From a virus (Duplodnaviria; Caudoviricetes), in the IMG/VR virus record IMGVR_UViG_3300033068_001989, positions 143,752-207,751 of that record: a stretch of 64,000 bases of DNA; one strand, written 5' to 3'. The position numbers and the translations under genes were made by a program. Position 1 is the stretch's first letter, and every line of letters begins with the position of its first letter. This document shows, piece after piece, positions 31,643-43,803 of the stretch. Under the pieces are notes generated by a model. The model saw only the letters and a program-made list of their open reading frames with translations. It was not told the origin of the DNA and ran no database searches.

Positions 31643-31770
31643 GTGGGGAAGGGTGGATTCGAACCACCTATTATAACATATGAAATTAATTTTATCCTTC
31701 GAAGTAACTCAAAATCTTACTACTTATCAAAGAGAATGTTGATACGAGTGTCTTTTTTGTTGCTTCCCCA
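31643..31770 (-). ncRNA. Y-RNA-like element 1 (tRNA acceptor ends, internal permuted conserved stem)
   Basis: TGGGGAAG/CTTCCCCA ends, T arm GGTGGTTCGAATCCACC, internal CATTCTCT then AGTAGTAA..GAGTTACTTCG. Confidence 0.65.
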
Positions 31771-32164: not shown

Positions 32165-32170
32165 GTTTAA

Positions 32171-32292
32171 ATAAGGGAATACTAAAGAAAGTATTTAATT
32201 TTCCGACTGGACTCGAACCAGCTACCCATTGTGAGTGAAACAATTGATCTAACCAAATGATCTACGAAGTAACTCTCTTAATTACCACTTAT
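32171..32292 (-). ncRNA. Y-RNA-like element 2 (conserved stem enclosing D, anticodon-like and T arms)
   Basis: AGTGGTAA..GAGTTACTTCG, GATC/GATC D arm, GCTGGTTCGAGTCCAGT T arm, TATTCCCT. Confidence 0.7.
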
Positions 32293-32379
32293 TTATACTT
32301 TAGCCGATATGCTTCATTGCAATTTAATTTCATGCTAATTTGAAACTTGCAGGGATTTCTCCACTCTCTCGGTTCTTTG

Positions 32380-32449
32380 TAGCGTAACGTGGACTCGAAC
32401 CACCCCCCAAGCTTATGAGACTTAGATGCAACCTTTACACCTTAACGCA
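32380..32449 (-). tRNA. tRNA with CAT anticodon (Met, atypical)
   Basis: Cloverleaf with CTCATAA loop; mismatches in acceptor and T stems. Confidence 0.7.
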
Positions 32450-32453
32450 ATAT

Positions 32454-33101
32454 TTATTGTTTTTTGATCCTTCCAAATTCCCATCCTTTTGACAAATGTT
32501 CATTTAGATCTATTTCTTTTATCTTCTTATCTGTCTGTCCATCATTGATCCATCTTGTGCCAAATTGAGAGTTTTTTTCTCCTTTTTGGTTCAATGAATT
32601 CTTAAGACCCACTGATAATTTTGCCTCTTCCGTATGAGATCTTCCTGAGAAGGTGTCATACTTATATTTGCCATCTCTGTGATTTTTTTTAGCCAATTCA
32701 GAGAGATGCTTTCTTAAATTTTCTTTAAAATCAGAATCGTTGTTTACTTTTATCGAAAATGCTCTAGCACCAGATTCTGTAAATTTCTTAAGATGCTCTA
32801 TACCACTAATACCTCCGCCTCCACCTGGCTGTAAATTCATACACATTGGATCGTTTAAAAGATCCTCGTTAACTAATTCGATTTCTCTCTTTCTTAAAGA
32901 TTCTCGATCTTCAAAATATTCAAGAATTTCCTTAGTGTGTGCTTCCTTACCGTGCTTTCTTATCGATTCTCTTATTCTTCTACCACTTCCCATGTAACCA
33001 TCATCTAAGTTATGCGTAGAGTGAATCCCTATGTAATATTTACCATTTTTTGTATTTGTTATTTTATACGAATAATGATATTTATATTTTTTTCTAGCCA
33101 T
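32454..33101 (-). CDS. GIY-YIG homing endonuclease (Seg-like, NUMOD3-like tail)
   Basis: YSYKITN..KYYIGIH..YMGSG; HTEEAK; free-standing in the tRNA array. Confidence 0.88.
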   Translation of the reverse strand: MARKKYKYHYSYKITNTKNGKYYIGIHSTHNLDDGYMGSGRRIRESIRKHGKEAHTKEILEYFEDRESLRKREIELVNEDLLNDPMCMNLQPGGGGGISGIEHLKKFTESGARAFSIKVNNDSDFKENLRKHLSELAKKNHRDGKYKYDTFSGRSHTEEAKLSVGLKNSLNQKGEKNSQFGTRWINDGQTDKKIKEIDLNEHLSKGWEFGRIKKQ

Positions 33102-33375: not shown

Positions 33376-34026
33376 CTATTTTTTATTTCTTCCTAGTAAC
33401 CATCCATCATTCAGATATTCGTTAAGGTCGCATCCCTTAATCTTTTTATCCTCCTGATTTTTATTTACCCATCTTGTACCAAATTGTGAATTTTTATTAC
33501 CAATTCTATTTATAGAATTTTTTTCACCTATTATTTTTTTGGTATCTTCTGTATGTTTTTTATCTTTGAAAGTTGGAGATCTCTCTGAATATGCTCCGTC
33601 CTTCCATGCTTTTTTAATCGTCTCGGAGGTCAACTTTTTAAAATGGAGTCTAAAATCCGCATCATTTTTTAACTTCTCTGAAAATCCCCTTCCCCCCGAG
33701 GAGCTGCATTTTTTCATATGCTTCTCGTTTATAAACCCTCCACCACCACCGGGCTGTAGATTCATGCACATTGGATCATTTAATAAATCCTCATTAACTA
33801 ATTCAATTTCTCTTTTTCGTAGGGATTCTCTGTCTTCGAAATATTCCAAAATTTCCTTGGTGTGTGAATCCTTTCCATGTCTTCTTATTGAATTTGTAAT
33901 CCTTTTACCACTTCCAAAATAATCATCATCAAGATTATCTGTAGAATGCATACCTATATAATATTTACCATCCTTTTTGTTGGTTATCTTATAGATATAG
34001 TGAAACCTCTTTTCTTTTCTTGCCAT
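33376..34026 (-). CDS. GIY-YIG homing endonuclease (Seg-like, NUMOD3-like tail)
   Basis: YIYKITN..KYYIGMH..YFGSG; KKHTEDTKK; close paralogue of 32454-33101. Confidence 0.88.
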   Translation of the reverse strand: MARKEKRFHYIYKITNKKDGKYYIGMHSTDNLDDDYFGSGKRITNSIRRHGKDSHTKEILEYFEDRESLRKREIELVNEDLLNDPMCMNLQPGGGGGFINEKHMKKCSSSGGRGFSEKLKNDADFRLHFKKLTSETIKKAWKDGAYSERSPTFKDKKHTEDTKKIIGEKNSINRIGNKNSQFGTRWVNKNQEDKKIKGCDLNEYLNDGWLLGRNKK

Positions 34027-38409: not shown

Positions 38410-39990
38410 TTAGATAACAATAGCTTCGATTTCTCTTAAAATCGCTTTTGGATCGATCTCAGCTTTTTTGATCATCTCGTAGATATCAGCAGAGTAACCA
38501 AAAAGTTGAACTAATTTGTTACCTGGTTTGAACATGGTTGTACCATATCCTTGAATATCAACAGTGTAGATGAAAGGTTCGCCATGTGCAGATTTGTAGG
38601 ATTGGAAAGAACTGTTTGTAACGATTCTATCACCACCTTGTAAATCTGATATGATGAAGATACGATCATATTTACCGCTTTTTTGTAAAGTTGAGAAGAT
38701 TGAGCCGAAGTCAGTACCATGACCAACTCTACCTTGCAAACTTAAACATGTATTTTTGATCGTATTGATGCTATCGCCAGGATTGTATCTGATACCTTCT
38801 GTTGTTGTCGCAAATTGGTATAAATCTGCACCGATACCTTTTGCTAACGTTGCTCCAATAAGAGCAGCTTTATCAATACAATGTTTGTTTATAGCTTTAC
38901 CATTCATGGTAACTCCATGTCCCATTCCGTGCATAGATCCAGATGTATCAATAACAACCGCTGTTCTGCCATGTGAGAATAATTCGAGCAAGTTTGGTAT
39001 TGCTAATTCGTAAGCTCTATTCAAAGCAGTAACGAATGGTCTAGACGCAGAAGCACTAGTTTCTTGTAAAAGAATCTCCAAAGCAATATCTATTTGGTGA
39101 GGAAAGACCAAAGATTTTCTGATCAATTTCTCATCGATTAAAAGCTCACACGCACCACTAACTAATTCAGAATTTGAACTTGTGTTGATGATGTTTCTTA
39201 AATTACGAAGCAATGCCAAGTAACCAATTTTTCTAGTTTTAATCAATTCAGCATAGTTGCTTTCTTTAGCTTGTGTCAATTCAACCTCTGCTTGGGCTTT
39301 AGTGATTTCACCGGATTTAACTTTTGCAGCAACTTCCTGTCCTGATTTTGTGTTTTTGTCCTCGACAGTGTTGAATTGTTTTAACTTACCAGTCATAAGT
39401 TCTTTGAAAACCCCCTCCATTTGTGGTGTTGTTGGTTTTGGACGAACCAAGTTAACAACATCAACAAGTGAAACTGCTTTCCCTTTACCTTGATATTTAG
39501 CTAATTCGTATGCATCTGCTGATTCTAAAGCTGCTTTAAAGCCTTTCTTCATTGAGTTAGGTAATGGTTTACCAGGATTGAAGTGTTGGTAAGCTGCGAT
39601 AATCTCCAATACGTCATCTAAACGGTATATAATACCACCAGTTTTAGCATTCTTATCTCTTTTTGAGAAGAATCTTCTACCTATAGCTGATCCGGATAAA
39701 TGTTTAACTAATGATACAGATCCGAAATGTGTTACTGATCTTTGACCAACAACAGTTCTCGCGTATACAAGAGCTTTAGCAACGAATTCGATATCTTTCT
39801 TGGACAATTCGTCGATAAGTTGAACAAATCTGTTCTCTCTATCTGATAATTTTTCATAGTATGAATTATCCAATCCTGTGGTAAGAATAGCAATTAATTC
39901 TAATTTTGGATCATACTTCACACCGGTACCACCTTGATGGTTTGTAACTGTCTCAACAGTTCTTTTTACTTTTTGATTGTAACGTGACAT
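38410..39990 (-). CDS. TROVE-domain Ro60/Rsr-like RNA-binding protein
   Basis: N-terminal TNHQGG, YELAKY, ALLRNLRN, C-terminal vWA domain with DTSGSM, GTDF, IISDLQ. Confidence 0.9.
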   Translation of the reverse strand: MSRYNQKVKRTVETVTNHQGGTGVKYDPKLELIAILTTGLDNSYYEKLSDRENRFVQLIDELSKKDIEFVAKALVYARTVVGQRSVTHFGSVSLVKHLSGSAIGRRFFSKRDKNAKTGGIIYRLDDVLEIIAAYQHFNPGKPLPNSMKKGFKAALESADAYELAKYQGKGKAVSLVDVVNLVRPKPTTPQMEGVFKELMTGKLKQFNTVEDKNTKSGQEVAAKVKSGEITKAQAEVELTQAKESNYAELIKTRKIGYLALLRNLRNIINTSSNSELVSGACELLIDEKLIRKSLVFPHQIDIALEILLQETSASASRPFVTALNRAYELAIPNLLELFSHGRTAVVIDTSGSMHGMGHGVTMNGKAINKHCIDKAALIGATLAKGIGADLYQFATTTEGIRYNPGDSINTIKNTCLSLQGRVGHGTDFGSIFSTLQKSGKYDRIFIISDLQGGDRIVTNSSFQSYKSAHGEPFIYTVDIQGYGTTMFKPGNKLVQLFGYSADIYEMIKKAEIDPKAILREIEAIVI

Positions 39991-40020
39991 GATTATAATT
40001 GTTTATTCGTTTATATTATA

Positions 40021-40402
40021 AAATTGAGTTATCGGAAAGATAAAGCATATAGACTAGGTCAAATGCAAGATCAACGTCAAAGACCTTCTTCTATTGCAAA
40101 GACAATGACAAAAACTAAGTCTCTTTCGCTAGCCAATTATCTGCCTAGTGGTAAAGATTTCTCTTTCTCTATGGCTTTCAGTAACTTGTCTAGCTATTGA
40201 GTTCTATCTCAGTTTTATTTATTTTTATAGAAGAAGCGGAGTGATGAGAGTTCCCGAAGGATCCTCTCTGATTGCTGTATATGATTAATAGTCATTTATC
40301 TTATAAGATAATGGCCAGGAGCCATTAATTAAAGGACTTTATCTCTCCGAATCAAAGCATCAGGGGAATCGGCTTTTGCTTACCCCTTCAGCACCTCAAT
40401 TT
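40021..40402 (-). ncRNA. ~380-nt structured RNA with hexamer repeats, upstream of TROVE
   Basis: Closing helices AAATTGAG/CTCAATTT and TCGGAGAGATAAAG/CTTTATCTTTCCGA, UUCG hairpin, GNNNTW array at 40049-40121. Confidence 0.65.
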
Positions 40403-40406
40403 ATTT

Positions 40407-41330
40407 TTATTTTTCTAGTTGTTTCAAAAATTCATCAACAACTGGTTGGAATCTAGGATCAATCTGAATCTTAAGATTTACAGCTTCACCGATTCTATTT
40501 TGACGCTCTGTTTCAAAATCAAGACTTGCTTTCTTGTAGTTTGCTAACCAAGCTTCTCTCTTTTTTGTGTATTCGTTCATCGCTAGTGAATTCTTTTCAT
40601 TAGCTTCTGCTTGAGCATCAGCATTGATTTTAGAAATCCTTGCATTTTCCTTAGTTACAGCATTCTTAACCTTCGATTTGAAATAATTAACTCTTTGCTC
40701 GTAACTTCTATGAAGAGCTGCCAACTCTTCGTGTGTTTTTAACAACTCCTCAGGTTTGTGATGCACATTAACTTTAATAGGAGTTTTCTTTCCTGTTTCG
40801 ATTTCCATAAACTCAAGAAGCTGAATTTTAGGTAATTCTGATCTCAGACGATCTAATGTTCCACCCTTATGAATAAATTGTCCTATATGTGAAGCATAAG
40901 CCTCCGCCTCGATGAATTCGTTATATTCATCAATTGTTAGTTGATTCCAGCCCCAATCCTCTGCAACTTGTACCAGAACTTCAGGTTGAATATTAGGTTC
41001 TCTTTCAGGTGAAGGATTTTGATCCTCATAATCAAAATATTCTCTCTTGATTCCGTTTATCAATTCGTCTTTGGCTTTTATATTCTCCATTAGAAAAGCC
41101 TGTGTTGCATGCAACCTTGCTTTACTTTTAAGAAGTTCAACAACATCTTTAGGTAAAGGTTTTGCAGCGGTTAAATTGTGATCCTCTTTGGATATCCTTA
41201 TCGTTTTTGATGCGTTATTAATATCTGCTAAAGCTGCAGTAATATCCTTTGATCTTTGGTTACAAAGATTCGATATAGATTGAGCTTGAGACATTGATAA
41301 TCCTTTTGATGCTAATGAATTTCTTTTCAT
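40407..41330 (-). CDS. hypothetical coiled-coil protein between the Y-like RNAs and TROVE
   Basis: 307-aa helical ORF; no family recognised. Confidence 0.8.
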   Translation of the reverse strand: MKRNSLASKGLSMSQAQSISNLCNQRSKDITAALADINNASKTIRISKEDHNLTAAKPLPKDVVELLKSKARLHATQAFLMENIKAKDELINGIKREYFDYEDQNPSPEREPNIQPEVLVQVAEDWGWNQLTIDEYNEFIEAEAYASHIGQFIHKGGTLDRLRSELPKIQLLEFMEIETGKKTPIKVNVHHKPEELLKTHEELAALHRSYEQRVNYFKSKVKNAVTKENARISKINADAQAEANEKNSLAMNEYTKKREAWLANYKKASLDFETERQNRIGEAVNLKIQIDPRFQPVVDEFLKQLEK

Positions 41331-41373
41331 GATTTCTAATTTTTGTTTTTATATTTTACTTTAAATTTCTACA

Positions 41374-41413
41374 ATAAAAAAGGGATTAAGTCGCTTGGCG
41401 TCCTAATCCCTTT
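41374..41413 (-). terminator. terminator-like hairpin after the Y-like RNA cluster
   Basis: AAAGGGATTAG..TTAATCCCTTT followed by a T tract. Confidence 0.65.
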
Positions 41414-41422
41414 ATAAAACTA

Positions 41423-41563
41423 ACAGAGAATGATGTAAGAAGTGTGAACAATTTAATGTCTGATTTTCATTCAGATGACTTAACCACTTGTCTAAATTTC
41501 CAGTTTAGCGGAAACTATCGGAGTCGAACCGATGTGCGATGTAACTTCTATACTTACTACTGT
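41423..41563 (-). ncRNA. Y-RNA-like element 3 (YrlA-type permuted order T - acceptor loop - D - anticodon)
   Basis: AGTAGTAA..AAGTTACATCG, ATCGGTTCGACTCCGAT, AGTTTCC/GGAAATT, D arm, TCTGA/TCAGA arm, CATTCTCT. Confidence 0.75.
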
Positions 41564-41571
41564 CGTATGTT

Positions 41572-41731
41572 TTATAAGGGAATGATGTAAATAGCGTTTT
41601 TTCTAACGTGCTCTACCAACTGAGCTATTCCCCCCAAATTTTTAATTTGTTTAGTGGGGGAAGATGGATTCGAACCACCGACACCGTGCTTTCAATGCAT
41701 ACGAAGTAACTATTTTACTGACCACTTATAA
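41572..41731 (-). ncRNA. Y-RNA-like element 4 (YrlA-type permuted order T - acceptor loop - D)
   Basis: AGTGGTCA..TAGTTACTTCG, GGTGGTTCGAATCCATC, TTCCCCC/GGGGGAA, TAGCTCAGTTGGTAGAGC, CATTCCCT. Confidence 0.78.
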
Positions 41732-41739
41732 TATGTTTT

Positions 41740-41874
41740 TTGTAAGGGAATGTTCGGGTGAGTTTCAATGGATGTTTTTGCTGGAGTTGAACCAGCTACC
41801 TAAAGTTTAAGAGACTCTCGCTCTACCAAGTGAGCTAAAAAACGAAGTAACTCATATTCCGTTACCACTTACAA
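41740..41874 (-). ncRNA. Y-RNA-like element 5 (normal D - anticodon - T order inside the conserved stem)
   Basis: AGTGGTAA..GAGTTACTTCG, GTTTTT/AAAAAC, D, anticodon-like and T arms, CATTCCCT. Confidence 0.75.
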
Positions 41875-41965
41875 TAATACTTTTTCAATGAACGTTTTGT
41901 GATTTTTATATGGAGGGAAATCCTCTTTGTTTCATAAAAATCAATATTTTTTTAAAATTTAACGA

Positions 41966-42121
41966 TCTTAGAGATATTGGGAAGGGAATGTTTAGAAAGG
42001 GATGCTAATAGTTTTTGCGGGAGTTGAACCCGCGACCTTAAATACCAAAAATTTACGCCCTACCAACTGGGCTAAAAAACGAAGTAACCTTTCAATTTAC
42101 CACTAACCAATATTTCTAAGA
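41966..42121 (-). ncRNA. Y-RNA-like element 6 (normal D - anticodon - T order)
   Basis: AGTGGTAA..AGGTTACTTCG, D, anticodon-like and T arms, CATTCCCT, extra 15-bp outer stem. Confidence 0.75.
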
Positions 42122-42130
42122 ACGTTTTTG

Positions 42131-42204
42131 TAGGCAAGGAGAGACTCGAACTCTCGACCTTCGCGGTATCAGCGCGACGCTCTAACCAACTGAGCTACCT
42201 GCCT
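42131..42204 (-). tRNA. tRNA-Ile(GAT)
   Basis: Cloverleaf. Confidence 0.95.
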
Positions 42205-42215
42205 ATTTTATTTCG

Positions 42216-42286
42216 AGATCCCGGAGGGATTCGAACCCCCGTCTTCAGATCCGTATTCTGAAATTCTTCCGCTGAACTACGGGACC
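42216..42286 (-). tRNA. tRNA-Arg(ACG)
   Basis: Cloverleaf. Confidence 0.9.
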
Positions 42287-42692: not shown

Positions 42693-43154
42693 TTAATTTG
42701 CAATTTTTTCAATAATAATTTCCTTAACCTTAACTGGACTCGCCATACCTGGAAACTTTTTATTAAAAGCACCGATAACTTTACCTGTTAAAACCTGTGC
42801 ATTTAATCCAAGACCATCCATTTCTGAAAGTAGTTCCATAACAGCGGATGTTATTTCTGAATCCTCCATTTGTTTAGGAAGATAAGATTCAATCGGTTTC
42901 AACTCAGCTGTTTCTTGTTCTACAAGATCCATTCTTCCGGCCTTTGTGAATTCCTCTACTGATTGTTTTCTTTGTTTGATTGTGCTTATAACAATCTTTA
43001 AAACATCAGCATCACTAAGCTCTGTTCCAGCTGGACCAGCTTTCTCAGCTTCTAGTATTTTGGACTTCAGACCACTTAAAGCACTTTTTGCTACTGTGTC
43101 TTTTGATTTGAATGCTGTAATATAATCAGCATTGATTTTCTCCTTTAGTGTCAT
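42693..43154 (-). CDS. GatB/YqeY domain protein
   Basis: MTLKEKINADYITAFKSKD..IKQRKQSVEEF..GRMDL..ESYLPKQ; start corrected to avoid the tRNA-like element. Confidence 0.88.
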   Translation of the reverse strand: MTLKEKINADYITAFKSKDTVAKSALSGLKSKILEAEKAGPAGTELSDADVLKIVISTIKQRKQSVEEFTKAGRMDLVEQETAELKPIESYLPKQMEDSEITSAVMELLSEMDGLGLNAQVLTGKVIGAFNKKFPGMASPVKVKEIIIEKIAN

Positions 43155-43169
43155 GTTTTCAATTTTTAG

Positions 43170-43238
43170 TGGAATATTGGGACTCGAACCCTGCCTCCCA
43201 CTGTTTAGTGGTTGCACATCCGCTTGTGCTTTTATCCC
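43170..43238 (-). ncRNA. degenerate tRNA-like element
   Basis: Acceptor, D and T arms present; anticodon loop TAAACA is non-canonical. Confidence 0.55.
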
Positions 43239-43692: not shown

Positions 43693-43713
43693 TTCGAAAT
43701 GTTTAAAAATTAG

Positions 43714-43803
43714 TGATCAGAACAGGAATCGAACCTGTGCTCTGCCGAAGATACCCCGATTTCTCGGATCGACGACCAAATACTCCCACTATATCATCTG
43801 ATC
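43714..43803 (-). ncRNA. tRNA-like RNA with an enlarged anticodon arm
   Basis: GATCAGA/TCTGATC acceptor, T arm ACAGGTTCGATTCCTGT, extra hairpin in place of the anticodon loop. Confidence 0.6.

What the first reader, a model, noticed from the sequence alone, without database searches (positions are those of the whole stretch)
38410..42121. Ro60/TROVE locus with six Y-RNA-like RNAs built on three different tRNA topologies
Seen: six elements (31643-31770, 32171-32292, 41423-41563, 41572-41731, 41740-41874, 41966-42121; all minus) share a bipartite stem, 5' AGTRGTMA..GTTACWTCG pairing with 3' ..YATTCYCT, whose middle covaries between copies. Four form a tandem cluster upstream of the TROVE gene. 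The stem is fused to tRNA parts in three ways: (a) T arm - closed acceptor - D arm (elements 3 and 4); (b) a normally ordered D - anticodon - T body (elements 2, 5, 6); (c) open acceptor ends with the two stem strands swapped and joined by a loop (element 1). Established: Rsr/Ro60 binds Y RNAs, and YrlA RNAs carry a permuted tRNA-like domain of type (a); some phages encode both. Inference: the stem is a portable Ro-binding module attached to varied tRNA mimics, possibly decoys or adaptors against tRNA-targeting host defences. Topologies (b) and (c) are not the described YrlA layout as far as I know.
Basis: partly seen in the sequence, partly recalled or inferred. Interest (0 to 1): 0.92.

Follow-up and report, generated by a model that had tools for sequence, protein, structure and literature searches.

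The report
Phage Ro60 partner RNAs displaying tRNAs
A giant phage encodes the ring-shaped RNA-binding protein Ro60 plus six small RNAs that share one conserved stem "handle" but carry a tRNA look-alike joined at four different points, with anticodon loops that change unusually fast; this offers a natural way to test why bacterial and phage Y RNAs mimic tRNA.

Summary
Six minus-strand elements, at the stated coordinates to within 3 nt, are the only places in the 207.7-kb phage record with the composite motif AGURGUMA-N8-10-GUUACWUCG plus a pairing AUUCYCU strand. Both helices of this handle covary. The handle tracks TROVE in both directions: 19 of 20 related phage TROVE loci carry it on the TROVE strand (59 hits against 1), and 15 of 17 contigs found from the RNA motif alone encode a full-length TROVE. 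The protein has the Ro60 fold. I count four junction types, not three: acceptor end (E2, E5, E6), variable loop (E3, a complete permuted tRNA), anticodon position (E4, YrlA-type) and an internally capped handle with open acceptor ends (E1). Anticodon loops change 3-4 of 7 bases between phages that differ by 0.3-2.7% nearby. Not new: Y-RNA modularity, the YrlA layout, phage Ro60 with Y RNAs, a published normal-order model (Yrn1) that anticipates topology (b), and the same 5' handle motif in Bacillus phage G and many cellular TROVE loci. I found no description of the variable-loop and capped-handle junctions, their coexistence or the fast-changing anticodons. Ro60 binding and any decoy role are untested. 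This scan has already reported the family on other DNA, including a near-identical 430-kb phage.

The parts
38410..39990 (-). Ro60/TROVE protein gene (526 aa): HEAT-repeat ring plus vWA domain with a DxSxS MIDAS motif
   Evidence: Pfam TROVE 40.1 bits, cut-off 23. phmmer to Thermus phage phiLo Ro60 (9l5y/9kop), E 9e-20 over residues 17-517. AlphaFold2 model pLDDT 79.6. The top 13 Foldseek PDB matches are all Ro60/Rsr structures. D348, S350 and S352 are invariant in 12 homologues.
41966..42121 (-). E6: handle joined to the acceptor end of a whole normal-order tRNA body (anticodon UUG; anticodon loop 42044-42050), with an extra 14-bp terminal stem
   Evidence: Rfam tRNA 62.4 bits with a 1-72 mismatch. 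ARAGORN tRNA-Gln. Fold -44.7 kcal/mol, z -4.24. 5' motif at 42080-42104, 3' strand at 41983-41990. The L003 orthologue has anticodon UUA.
41740..41874 (-). E5: handle joined to the acceptor end of a whole tRNA body (anticodon CUU)
   Evidence: Rfam tRNA 58.1 bits. ARAGORN tRNA-Lys. Upper stem UGAGUU/AACUCA. In L003 and L012 the allele has ACGAAA/UUUCGU and anticodon UUG.
41572..41731 (-). E4: YrlA-type element, ordered handle - T arm - closed 7-bp acceptor - D arm - handle
   Evidence: Rfam YrlA RF02553 31.8 bits, E 9e-5, model positions 23-87. This compares with 36.2 bits for the Bacillus phage G element, to which E4 is 72.9% identical over 113 nt. Fold z -2.34.
41423..41563 (-). E3: complete circularly permuted tRNA (T arm - capped acceptor - D arm - anticodon arm) with the handle at the variable loop. 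Anticodon loop 41464-41470 (AUGAAAA, anticodon GAA).
   Evidence: Rebuilt in normal order, ARAGORN calls a 75-nt tRNA-Phe(GAA); the native order gives none. Anticodon loop: 5 of 7 columns variable against 3 of 134 elsewhere, p 2.6e-6.
41373..41413 (-). Intrinsic-terminator-like hairpin plus U6 that ends the tRNA-Arg / tRNA-Ile / E6-E5-E4-E3 run
   Evidence: RNAfold -18.5 kcal/mol, z -4.76, followed by UUUUUU. The consensus scan did not call it.
32168..32295 (-). E2: handle fused to a whole tRNA body (anticodon CAC). The conserved UACUUCG also serves as the 5' acceptor strand.
   Evidence: Rfam tRNA 36.5 bits. ARAGORN tRNA-Val. Upper stem AAGAGAG/CUUUCUU. The same type occurs in L007, L008, L009, L017 and L018.
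31644..31769 (-). E1: open 7-bp acceptor stem (GGGGAAG/CUUCCCC) plus T arm. The handle is an internal hairpin with swapped strand order, capped by the loop UGAU.
   Evidence: Nine homologues have 7 of 7 acceptor pairs from seven different sequences. RNAalifold recovers the capped handle and T arm, with 8 pairs changed on both sides. Caps in relatives are GNRA loops.
42130..42286 (-). tRNA-Arg(ACG) and tRNA-Ile(GAU) directly upstream of E6; probably the same transcript (inferred)
   Evidence: ARAGORN and Rfam. Spacing of 8-10 nt is seen in the sequence.

Best explanation
The six elements are phage-encoded Y-RNA-type partner RNAs of the phage's own Ro60 (TROVE) protein. Each has two modules. (1) A conserved handle: a lower helix with a bulged U (A-G-[U]-R-G pairing with C-Y-C-U), a small internal loop, a 6-10-bp upper helix whose sequence is free but always paired, and a conserved mostly unpaired 5'-strand block UACWUCG. 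By analogy with the bulged Ro-binding helix of Y RNAs, this is inferred to dock on Ro60. (2) A tRNA-shaped display module joined to the handle at the acceptor end (E2, E5, E6), the variable loop (E3), the anticodon position (E4) or inside the body with free acceptor ends (E1). The RNAs are probably made as part of the tRNA-array transcripts. Where a 7-bp acceptor stem is present (E1, E3, E4), they are probably trimmed by host RNase P, RNase Z and the CCA-adding enzyme, as shown for Mycobacterium smegmatis YrlA. The resulting particle would present different faces of a tRNA, including real and fast-changing anticodon loops, to tRNA-binding proteins while tethered to Ro60. The most likely role is in the contest over tRNA integrity during infection, either capturing or diverting host tRNA-targeting enzymes or recruiting an exonuclease. 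Shown here: the anatomy, the covariation, the linkage to TROVE, the Ro60 fold and the anticodon hypervariability. Inferred: Ro60 binding, processing and biological role.
For: The motif is confined to six copies on one strand. Both handle helices covary. The handle lies on the TROVE strand in 19 of 20 phage TROVE loci (59:1) and 38 of 74 cellular TROVE loci (63:1). Of 17 contigs found from the RNA motif alone, 15 have a full-length TROVE. Only TROVE among the neighbouring genes tracks the handle. The protein has the Ro60 fold. tRNA modules. E4 resembles the Bacillus phage G YrlA-type element, which has the same 5' motif next to a TROVE gene. Anticodon loops differ at 3-4 of 7 positions where the background differs by 0.3-2.7%, and anticodons swap between orthologues. 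Literature: Y RNAs are modular and YrlA mimics tRNA (PMC4201824; 10.1101/312249); phiLo Ro60 binds adjacent Y-like RNAs and forms complexes with host PNPase (PMC12135203); Bas63 Ro60-like gp130 counters the Ppl defence (PMC11482910).
Against: There are no binding, transcript or processing data. The published bacterial Ro-contact motif GNCGAAN0-1G is not matched: the motif here is UACWUCG, with CGAA only in E1. Rfam YrlA is far below its gathering score, and only the tRNA-like core aligns. One complete 325-kb phage keeps three handle copies beside only a 52-residue TROVE remnant. No RtcB or CCA-adding enzyme gene is present in the 207.7-kb record. Only 38 of 74 cellular TROVE loci match my phage-tuned pattern.
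Confidence: 0.78

Rival explanations
1. Some elements are precursors of working tRNAs: E2, E5 and E6 directly, and E3 after the acceptor cap is opened. The handle would be a leader-trailer duplex or removable tag that lets Ro60 chaperone, stabilise or gate their maturation, so that decoding is the real output.
For: E5 and E6 score 58-62 bits on the tRNA model, within the range of the phage's other tRNAs, with U33, 7-nt loops and conserved D- and T-loop bases. Lys(CUU) and Val(CAC) occur in the window only in E5 and E2. E3 rebuilt is a regular tRNA-Phe. Permuted pre-tRNAs are processed to tRNAs in some algae and archaea (10.1101/312249).
Against: The anticodon of the same element differs between phages that are 97-99% identical nearby: UUG/UUA, CUU/UUG, GAA/GUA/CAU. 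E5 and E6 have all-A/U acceptor and anticodon stems and a 1-72 mismatch, conserved across distant phages. E6, E3 and E1 duplicate anticodons already supplied by ordinary tRNAs. E4 and the short-insert relatives have no anticodon arm. No ligase or splicing endonuclease was found.
Confidence: 0.14
2. The handle is recognised by something other than Ro60, or is a processing or mobility signal of tRNA arrays, and its linkage with TROVE is only shared residence in tRNA arrays.
For: tRNA gene clusters often carry TROVE genes anyway: 20 of 29 archaeal clusters (PMC6333295), and many cellular loci here. G007 keeps handles without an intact TROVE. GIY-YIG homing-endonuclease-like ORFs lie among the tRNAs.
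Against: The handle also lies next to TROVE where there is no tRNA array or only short-insert copies. No other neighbouring gene tracks it. The sequence-free but always-paired upper helix and strict strand bias point to an RNA structure, not a DNA repeat. It has the bulged-helix design of Ro-binding stems.
Confidence: 0.06
3. The elements are decaying tRNA pseudogenes and chance repeats with no function.
For: Folding z-scores of single elements are weak for E2, E3 and E5.
Against: E3 and E4 are almost invariant across five genomes outside the loops. There are compensatory changes in every helix, and the types are conserved in phages with only 27-60% TROVE identity.
Confidence: 0.02

Closest known systems
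YrlA (Y RNA-like A; Rfam RF02553; Chen et al. 2014, PMC4201824; Wang et al. 2018, 10.1101/312249), including the Bacillus phage G element
   Same: It is encoded beside a Ro60 gene on the same strand. A terminal stem module is joined to a tRNA-like module in the order T arm - closed acceptor - D arm (E4). The 7-bp acceptor resembles that of M. smegmatis YrlA, which RNase P cleaves. The phage G element has the same 5' motif (AGCGGUAA-N5-GUUACUUCG) and is 72.9% identical to E4 over 113 nt.
   Different: Only E4 has this layout. E4 scores 31.8 bits against a gathering score of 69, and only model positions 23-87 align. The handle lacks the GNCGAAN0-1G motif. E3 keeps a whole anticodon arm, E2, E5 and E6 are whole tRNAs in normal order, and E1 has free acceptor ends.
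Deinococcus radiodurans Yrn1 as modelled by Chen et al. 2014
   Same: The Ro-binding stem occupies the acceptor position and the internal part is read in the normal D - anticodon arm - T order, as in topology (b).
   Different: Yrn1 has only partial D features, a 6-nt 'anticodon' loop and no variable arm. E5 and E6 are full cloverleaves that pass the tRNA model at 58-62 bits and have canonical 7-nt anticodon loops.
Thermus phage phiLo Ro60 with Yrl1/Yrl2 (PMC12135203; PDB 9KOP, 9L5Y)
   Same: It is the closest solved relative of the protein (E 9e-20; Foldseek rank 1-3). Its Y-like RNAs are encoded just upstream of the gene, and it is a phage-borne Ro60 particle proposed to act on host RNA machinery.
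   Different: phiLo has two stem-bulge-stem RNAs defined by a CGAA motif, with no tRNA module described. Here there are six RNAs, each with a tRNA module, embedded in a 34-tRNA array.
Circularly permuted tRNA genes (Cyanidioschyzon merolae and others; discussed in 10.1101/312249)
   Same: In E3 the 3' half of the tRNA precedes the 5' half, joined through a capped acceptor stem, and all four arms are present.
   Different: Those genes mature through a bulge-helix-bulge splicing endonuclease and a circular intermediate, which is not known in bacteria. In E3 the ends form the Ro-type handle, and its anticodon is not stable between close relatives.
Phage Bas63 gp130 (Ro60-like) next to its tRNA genes (PhageMaP preprint, PMC11482910)
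   Same: A phage Ro60-like gene adjoins a tRNA block, and the authors suggest that some of the 'tRNAs' are Y RNAs. It gives an experimental link to counter-defence.
   Different: No RNA partners were defined there. The Ppl system it counters is proposed to degrade DNA, not tRNA.

Membership tests
Ro60 / TROVE protein family | TROVE domain above Pfam's curated cut-off | tested here: met
   PF05731 scores 40.1 bits against a cut-off of 23.
Ro60 / TROVE protein family | Ro60 fold (HEAT-repeat ring plus vWA domain) over the full length | tested here: met
   The AlphaFold2 model (pLDDT 79.6) has Ro60/Rsr structures as its top 13 Foldseek matches, E 1e-15 to 7e-11, over 500-570 aligned columns.
Ro60 / TROVE protein family | MIDAS motif DxSxS in the vWA domain | tested here: met
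   D348, S350, G351 and S352 are invariant in 12 phage homologues.
Y RNA (Ro60-bound non-coding RNA, functional class) | Encoded next to the Ro60 gene and co-inherited with it | tested here: met
   19 of 20 phage loci, strand bias 59:1, and 15 of 17 motif-found contigs with a full-length TROVE.
Y RNA (Ro60-bound non-coding RNA, functional class) | Long stem formed by the RNA's 5' and 3' ends, containing a conserved bulged helix | tested here: met
   Met for E2-E6. In E1 the same helix is an internal capped hairpin, so E1 does not meet the '5' and 3' ends' part.
Y RNA (Ro60-bound non-coding RNA, functional class) | Conserved 5'-strand Ro-contact motif (GGUCCGA in animals, GNCGAAN0-1G in bacteria) | tested here: not met
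   The conserved 5' blocks are AGURGUMA and GUUACWUCG. CGAA follows only in E1 and in some relatives. The published motif is from PMC4201824.
Y RNA (Ro60-bound non-coding RNA, functional class) | Physical binding to Ro60 | not testable with these tools
   This needs EMSA or RIP.
YrlA (Rfam RF02553) | Score at or above the gathering threshold (69 bits) | tested here: not met
   E4 scores 31.8 bits and no other element scores. The Bacillus phage G element, named as a phage with a Y RNA-like RNA in PMC12135203 citing Chen 2014, also reaches only 36.2 bits.
YrlA (Rfam RF02553) | T arm - closed acceptor - D arm order with the anticodon stem opening into the Ro stem and no anticodon loop | tested here: inconclusive
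   E4 fits in the CM alignment, but a small hairpin after its D arm lets ARAGORN place the junction in the variable region. E3 has a full anticodon arm. E1, E2, E5 and E6 have other orders.
tRNA (Rfam RF00005) | Cloverleaf above the gathering score | tested here: met
   E6 62.4, E5 58.1 and E2 36.5 bits against 29. E3 qualifies only after re-ordering. E1 and E4 do not.
tRNA (Rfam RF00005) | A decoding identity kept stable between close relatives | tested here: not met
   Anticodons UUG/UUA (E6), CUU/UUG (E5) and GAA/GUA/CAU (E3) occur among phages 97-99% identical in the flanks.
Circularly permuted tRNA gene | The 3' half precedes the 5' half, with all arms present | tested here: met
   Met for E3 only.
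Circularly permuted tRNA gene | Maturation through a bulge-helix-bulge motif, splicing endonuclease and ligase | not tested
   No RtcB is present in the 207.7-kb record. The endonuclease was not searched for.

The most novel reading that the evidence does not exclude
The phage uses Ro60-tethered tRNA display RNAs as exchangeable baits. Each RNA exposes a chosen part of a tRNA (anticodon loop, acceptor end or elbow), and the anticodon loops are swapped rapidly to match the tRNA-targeting nucleases or modifiers of the current host. The Ro60 particle would then capture, divert or report those enzymes, making this an RNA-level counter-defence with programmable specificity.
Probability: 0.2. Interest if true: 0.85.

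Novelty: new variant of a known kind. Interest (0 to 1): 0.66.

Why it matters
What the tRNA-like domain of bacterial Y RNAs does, and which factor binds it, has been open since 2014. This locus supplies a natural series of variants. One constant handle is joined to a tRNA at four different points in a single genome, so different tRNA surfaces are left free in each RNA. The anticodon loops also change far faster than their surroundings. Together these predict which tRNA features matter: the T arm is always kept and the anticodon is displayed. They also give ready-made constructs for binding, processing and nuclease-sensitivity tests. The work shows too that Rfam's YrlA model, and the earlier practice of discarding candidates that overlap tandem tRNA genes, miss a large set of Ro60-linked RNAs in phages, Bacteroidota, Verrucomicrobiota and other phyla.

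Tried and rejected
- **Rfam at gathering thresholds:** it gives only tRNA in the window and in 15 cellular TROVE loci. YrlA appears only below threshold.
- **MAFFT plus RNAalifold:** this failed to recover the upper helix of short-insert members and the acceptor stem of the E1 class, because the variable strands were out of register. I used direct pairing checks and partner-swap tests instead.
- **E1 with the handle removed:** ARAGORN calls no tRNA. RNAfold does not support the 4-bp A/U 'anticodon arm' (loop UUCAUAU) that I saw by eye. I therefore dropped the idea that E1 is a near-complete tRNA with the handle inside its D loop. It remains a possibility only.
- **E4 after rotation:** ARAGORN gives an abnormal 'tRNA-???(aa)', so E4's junction is stated as YrlA-type with a caveat.
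- **Capped-handle calls in cellular loci:** my first automatic census found 21, but all were neighbouring 3' strands of tandem arrays and were removed.
- **RNA-repair or CCA-adding genes:** none in the 207.7-kb record. PHROGs and Pfam gave nothing useful for the 307-aa ORF between the cluster and TROVE, and it is limited to this phage lineage.
- **Literature:** searches for tRNA arrays with Ro60 found only the archaeal cluster paper. The 2020 Annual Review (PMC10870794) is not held.
- **Reverse-strand reading:** CGAAGUAAC would contain CGAA, but I rejected this because the T, D and acceptor features, the tRNAs and TROVE all lie on the minus strand.

Full report
**Setting.** The window is the last 64 kb of a 207,751-b IMG/VR virus record, estimated 73% complete. 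Near-identical relatives reach 430-434 kb. It carries 34 tRNA genes, all on the minus strand. The ORF at 38410-39990 (minus) is a TROVE protein.

- The exact 9-mer GTTACWTCG occurs six times in the window, always on the minus strand and once in each claimed element.
- In the whole record, AGTRGTMA followed by GTTACWTCG occurs only at those six places. A scan allowing two mismatches per half added nothing credible.

**The handle.** Using copies from relatives (below), I read it as four parts:
- a lower helix, A1-U7', G2-C6', bulged U3, R4-Y5', G5-C4', extended outward by 3-14 further pairs;
- an internal loop (5' URA; 3' a 3-5-nt spacer plus AUU);
- an upper helix of 6-10 bp made from the variable 'middle' plus the GU(U) of GUUAC;
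- a conserved, mostly unpaired 5'-strand block UACWUCG.

The lower helix covaries.
- On 12 short-insert members, 94% of cells pair against 72% in shuffles (0 of 500) and 46-63% when the partner is slid. Six of seven pairs change on both sides.
- A tally that picked the 3' motif without regard to pairing gave R4:Y5' as A:U 10, G:C 8, G:U 2, A:C 0.
- L007 and L009 carry AGUGUUAA with AUUACCU, a G-C to U-A exchange.

The upper helix has no conserved sequence, but each 5' strand pairs best with its own 3' strand.
- Over 36 non-redundant pairs, own partners average -7.95 kcal/mol and swapped partners -3.40, with 0 of 20,000 permutations as low.
- That test chose among 1-5 candidate partners by energy, so I repeated it on the ten elements with a single candidate: -7.51 against -3.86, eight ranked first, 0 of 50,000 permutations.

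**The tRNA parts: four junctions, not three.**
- **E5 and E6 (acceptor end).** They contain whole tRNA bodies in normal order (58.1 and 62.4 bits; Lys CUU, Gln UUG) with all-U:A acceptor stems and a 1-72 mismatch. The acceptor stem is separated from the upper helix by an internal loop that holds UACUUC.
- **E2 (acceptor end).** Also a whole tRNA (36.5 bits, Val CAC), but the conserved UACUUCG itself serves as the 5' acceptor strand.
- **E4 (anticodon position).** It aligns to Rfam YrlA over T arm, closed acceptor and D arm (31.8 bits, E 9e-5).
- **E3 (variable loop).** After the D arm it keeps a 5-bp anticodon stem with a 7-nt loop. Re-ordered in silico, it is called a 75-nt tRNA-Phe(GAA); the native order gives nothing. 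So the handle sits in the variable loop.
- **E1 (internal handle, open ends).** It has a free 7-bp acceptor stem and a T arm. The handle lies inside, 3' strand first, capped by UGAU. Nine homologues from phages with 31-98% TROVE identity have 7 of 7 acceptor pairs built from seven different sequences, and GNRA caps. The about 31-nt A/U-rich stretch between handle and T arm has no supported fold.

**Relatives and linkage to TROVE.** TROVE homologues in viral contigs (20 loci, 27-98% identity) carry the 5' motif on the TROVE strand in 19 of 20 loci, 59 hits against 1 on the other strand. For the reverse test, I searched all viral contigs for the RNA motif alone.
- This gave 17 contigs: 6 were already TROVE loci, and 9 of the other 11 have a full-length TROVE.
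- One, a 325-kb phage rated complete, has three handles next to a 52-residue TROVE remnant.
- One 27-kb fragment has none.

Of seven neighbouring proteins, only TROVE is found beyond this phage lineage. A census of distinct phage copies found:

| Type | Distinct copies |
|---|---|
| Short insert, no tRNA part | 24 |
| Whole tRNA (ARAGORN-called) | 13 |
| Whole tRNA, E2-type, not called | at least 4 |
| Permuted complete tRNA | 11 |
| Capped handle | 9 |

**Cellular loci.** Cellular TROVE genes 32-39% identical (Bacteroidota, Verrucomicrobiota, Sericytochromatia and others) have the same 5' motif upstream in 38 of 74 loci, 63 hits against 1. They carry short-insert or permuted modules. I saw no capped handles and only one doubtful whole-tRNA call there. 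Many of these loci also hold dense tRNA arrays, and none reaches the YrlA gathering score.

**The protein.** It aligns over residues 17-517 to Thermus phage phiLo Ro60 (E 9e-20). The AlphaFold2 model (pLDDT 79.6) has Ro60 or Rsr structures as its top 13 PDB matches. The MIDAS residues are invariant.

**Dynamics.** I compared five genomes whose E4-E3 region differs by 0.3-2.7%.
- The E3 anticodon loop reads AUGAAAA, CAGUAAA or CUCAUAA: 5 of 7 columns vary against 3 of 134 elsewhere (p 2.6e-6), and 3-4 of 7 differ per pair. L002 and L051 differ by 1 of 329 in the background and 1 of 81 in a spacer, but by 3 of 7 in the loop.
- The E6 anticodon is UUG or UUA.
- E5 exists as two alleles with different, mutually compensated upper helices and D stems, and anticodon CUU or UUG.
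- L012 lacks E6.

**Expression.** tRNA-Arg, tRNA-Ile, E6, E5, E4 and E3 follow each other and end at a strong hairpin plus U6 (-18.5 kcal/mol, z -4.76). Co-transcription with tRNAs is inferred.

**Comparison with the literature.**
- Y RNAs are modular, with a Ro-binding stem and an effector module. YrlA's effector module is a permuted tRNA mimic (PMC4201824; 10.1101/312249).
- M. smegmatis YrlA, with a 7-bp acceptor, is cut by RNase P and receives CCA. E1, E3 and E4 have such stems.
- Yrn1 was modelled in the normal arm order with the Ro stem at the acceptor position, which anticipates topology (b).
- Chen et al. discarded hits overlapping tandem tRNA genes, which would hide array-embedded copies.
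- Bacillus phage G has a YrlA-type element with the same 5' motif 2 kb from its TROVE gene. It scores only 36.2 bits on Rfam YrlA.
- phiLo Ro60 binds two adjacent Y-like RNAs and forms complexes with host PNPase.
- Bas63 Ro60-like gp130 counters the Ppl defence.
- I found no paper describing the variable-loop or capped-handle junctions, several junctions in one locus, or hypervariable anticodon loops. The held library is incomplete.

**Mechanism.** Most likely these are Ro60 partner RNAs that display tRNA surfaces (0.78). The role in tRNA-centred conflict with the host is inference. The main rival is that some are tagged precursors of working tRNAs (0.14). Unstable anticodons, A/U-only stems and the members without an anticodon arm argue against it.

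**Earlier findings.** This scan has already reported the same family on other DNA, including a near-identical 430-kb phage. I reached the junction types and the anticodon result from my own analyses.

**Limits.**
- All structural claims are computational.
- My search pattern is tuned to the phage consensus.
- The host is unknown. Bacteroidota is suggested only by the nearest cellular TROVE genes and by MAG labels.

Noticed in passing
L110, L119, L120, L117, L077, L059, L067, L070 (cellular TROVE loci), first ~4 kb: Verrucomicrobial, Saprospiraceae and Sericytochromatia contigs carry dense arrays of 8-20 tRNA genes directly upstream of TROVE, with handle RNAs between array and gene. A tRNA-cluster/TROVE link is published for archaea (PMC6333295), but I found nothing for these phyla.
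   Followed up: partly
L005:11645-11880, L006:11605-11790, L010:1487-1700: A handle-bearing RNA starts right after the TROVE stop codon and encloses a conserved ~150-nt insert without tRNA features (shared block GGAGCAUAAAAAAGGUAACCCC). It may be a further Y-RNA class, and it is absent from this window.
   Followed up: no
L048 (G007:C1:16840-19995): A 325-kb phage rated complete keeps three handle RNAs directly upstream of a 52-residue C-terminal remnant of TROVE and has no intact TROVE gene. Either the protein was lost recently or the RNAs can work without it.
   Followed up: partly
window 32380-32449 (-): A sub-threshold tRNA-like element (26.4 bits, CAU-type anticodon loop, two acceptor mismatches) lies just upstream of E2. 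ARAGORN does not call it.
   Followed up: no
window 43713-43803 (-): ARAGORN reports a 'tRNA-???' with a two-base anticodon (39.4 bits on the Rfam tRNA model). It is an irregular tRNA or another mimic without a handle.
   Followed up: no
window 32454-33101 and 33376-34026 (-); L012:7560-8100: GIY-YIG (SegE-like) homing-endonuclease-type ORFs are interspersed in the tRNA array. In L012 an ORF occupies the place of E6, which suggests that endonuclease-driven turnover remodels the RNA cluster.
   Followed up: no
L011:5002-5073, L013:12835-12908, L016:3750-3823; L003:7918-7992: Several related phages carry CUA-anticodon (amber-reading) tRNAs, and the E6 orthologue of L003 has a UUA anticodon. This may connect to stop-codon reassignment in this phage group.
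   Followed up: no
window 42693-43217 (-): A YqeY/GatB-like protein (PF09424, E 6e-31) is encoded inside the tRNA array, 0.4 kb upstream of the tRNA-Arg that starts the E6-E3 run.
   Followed up: no
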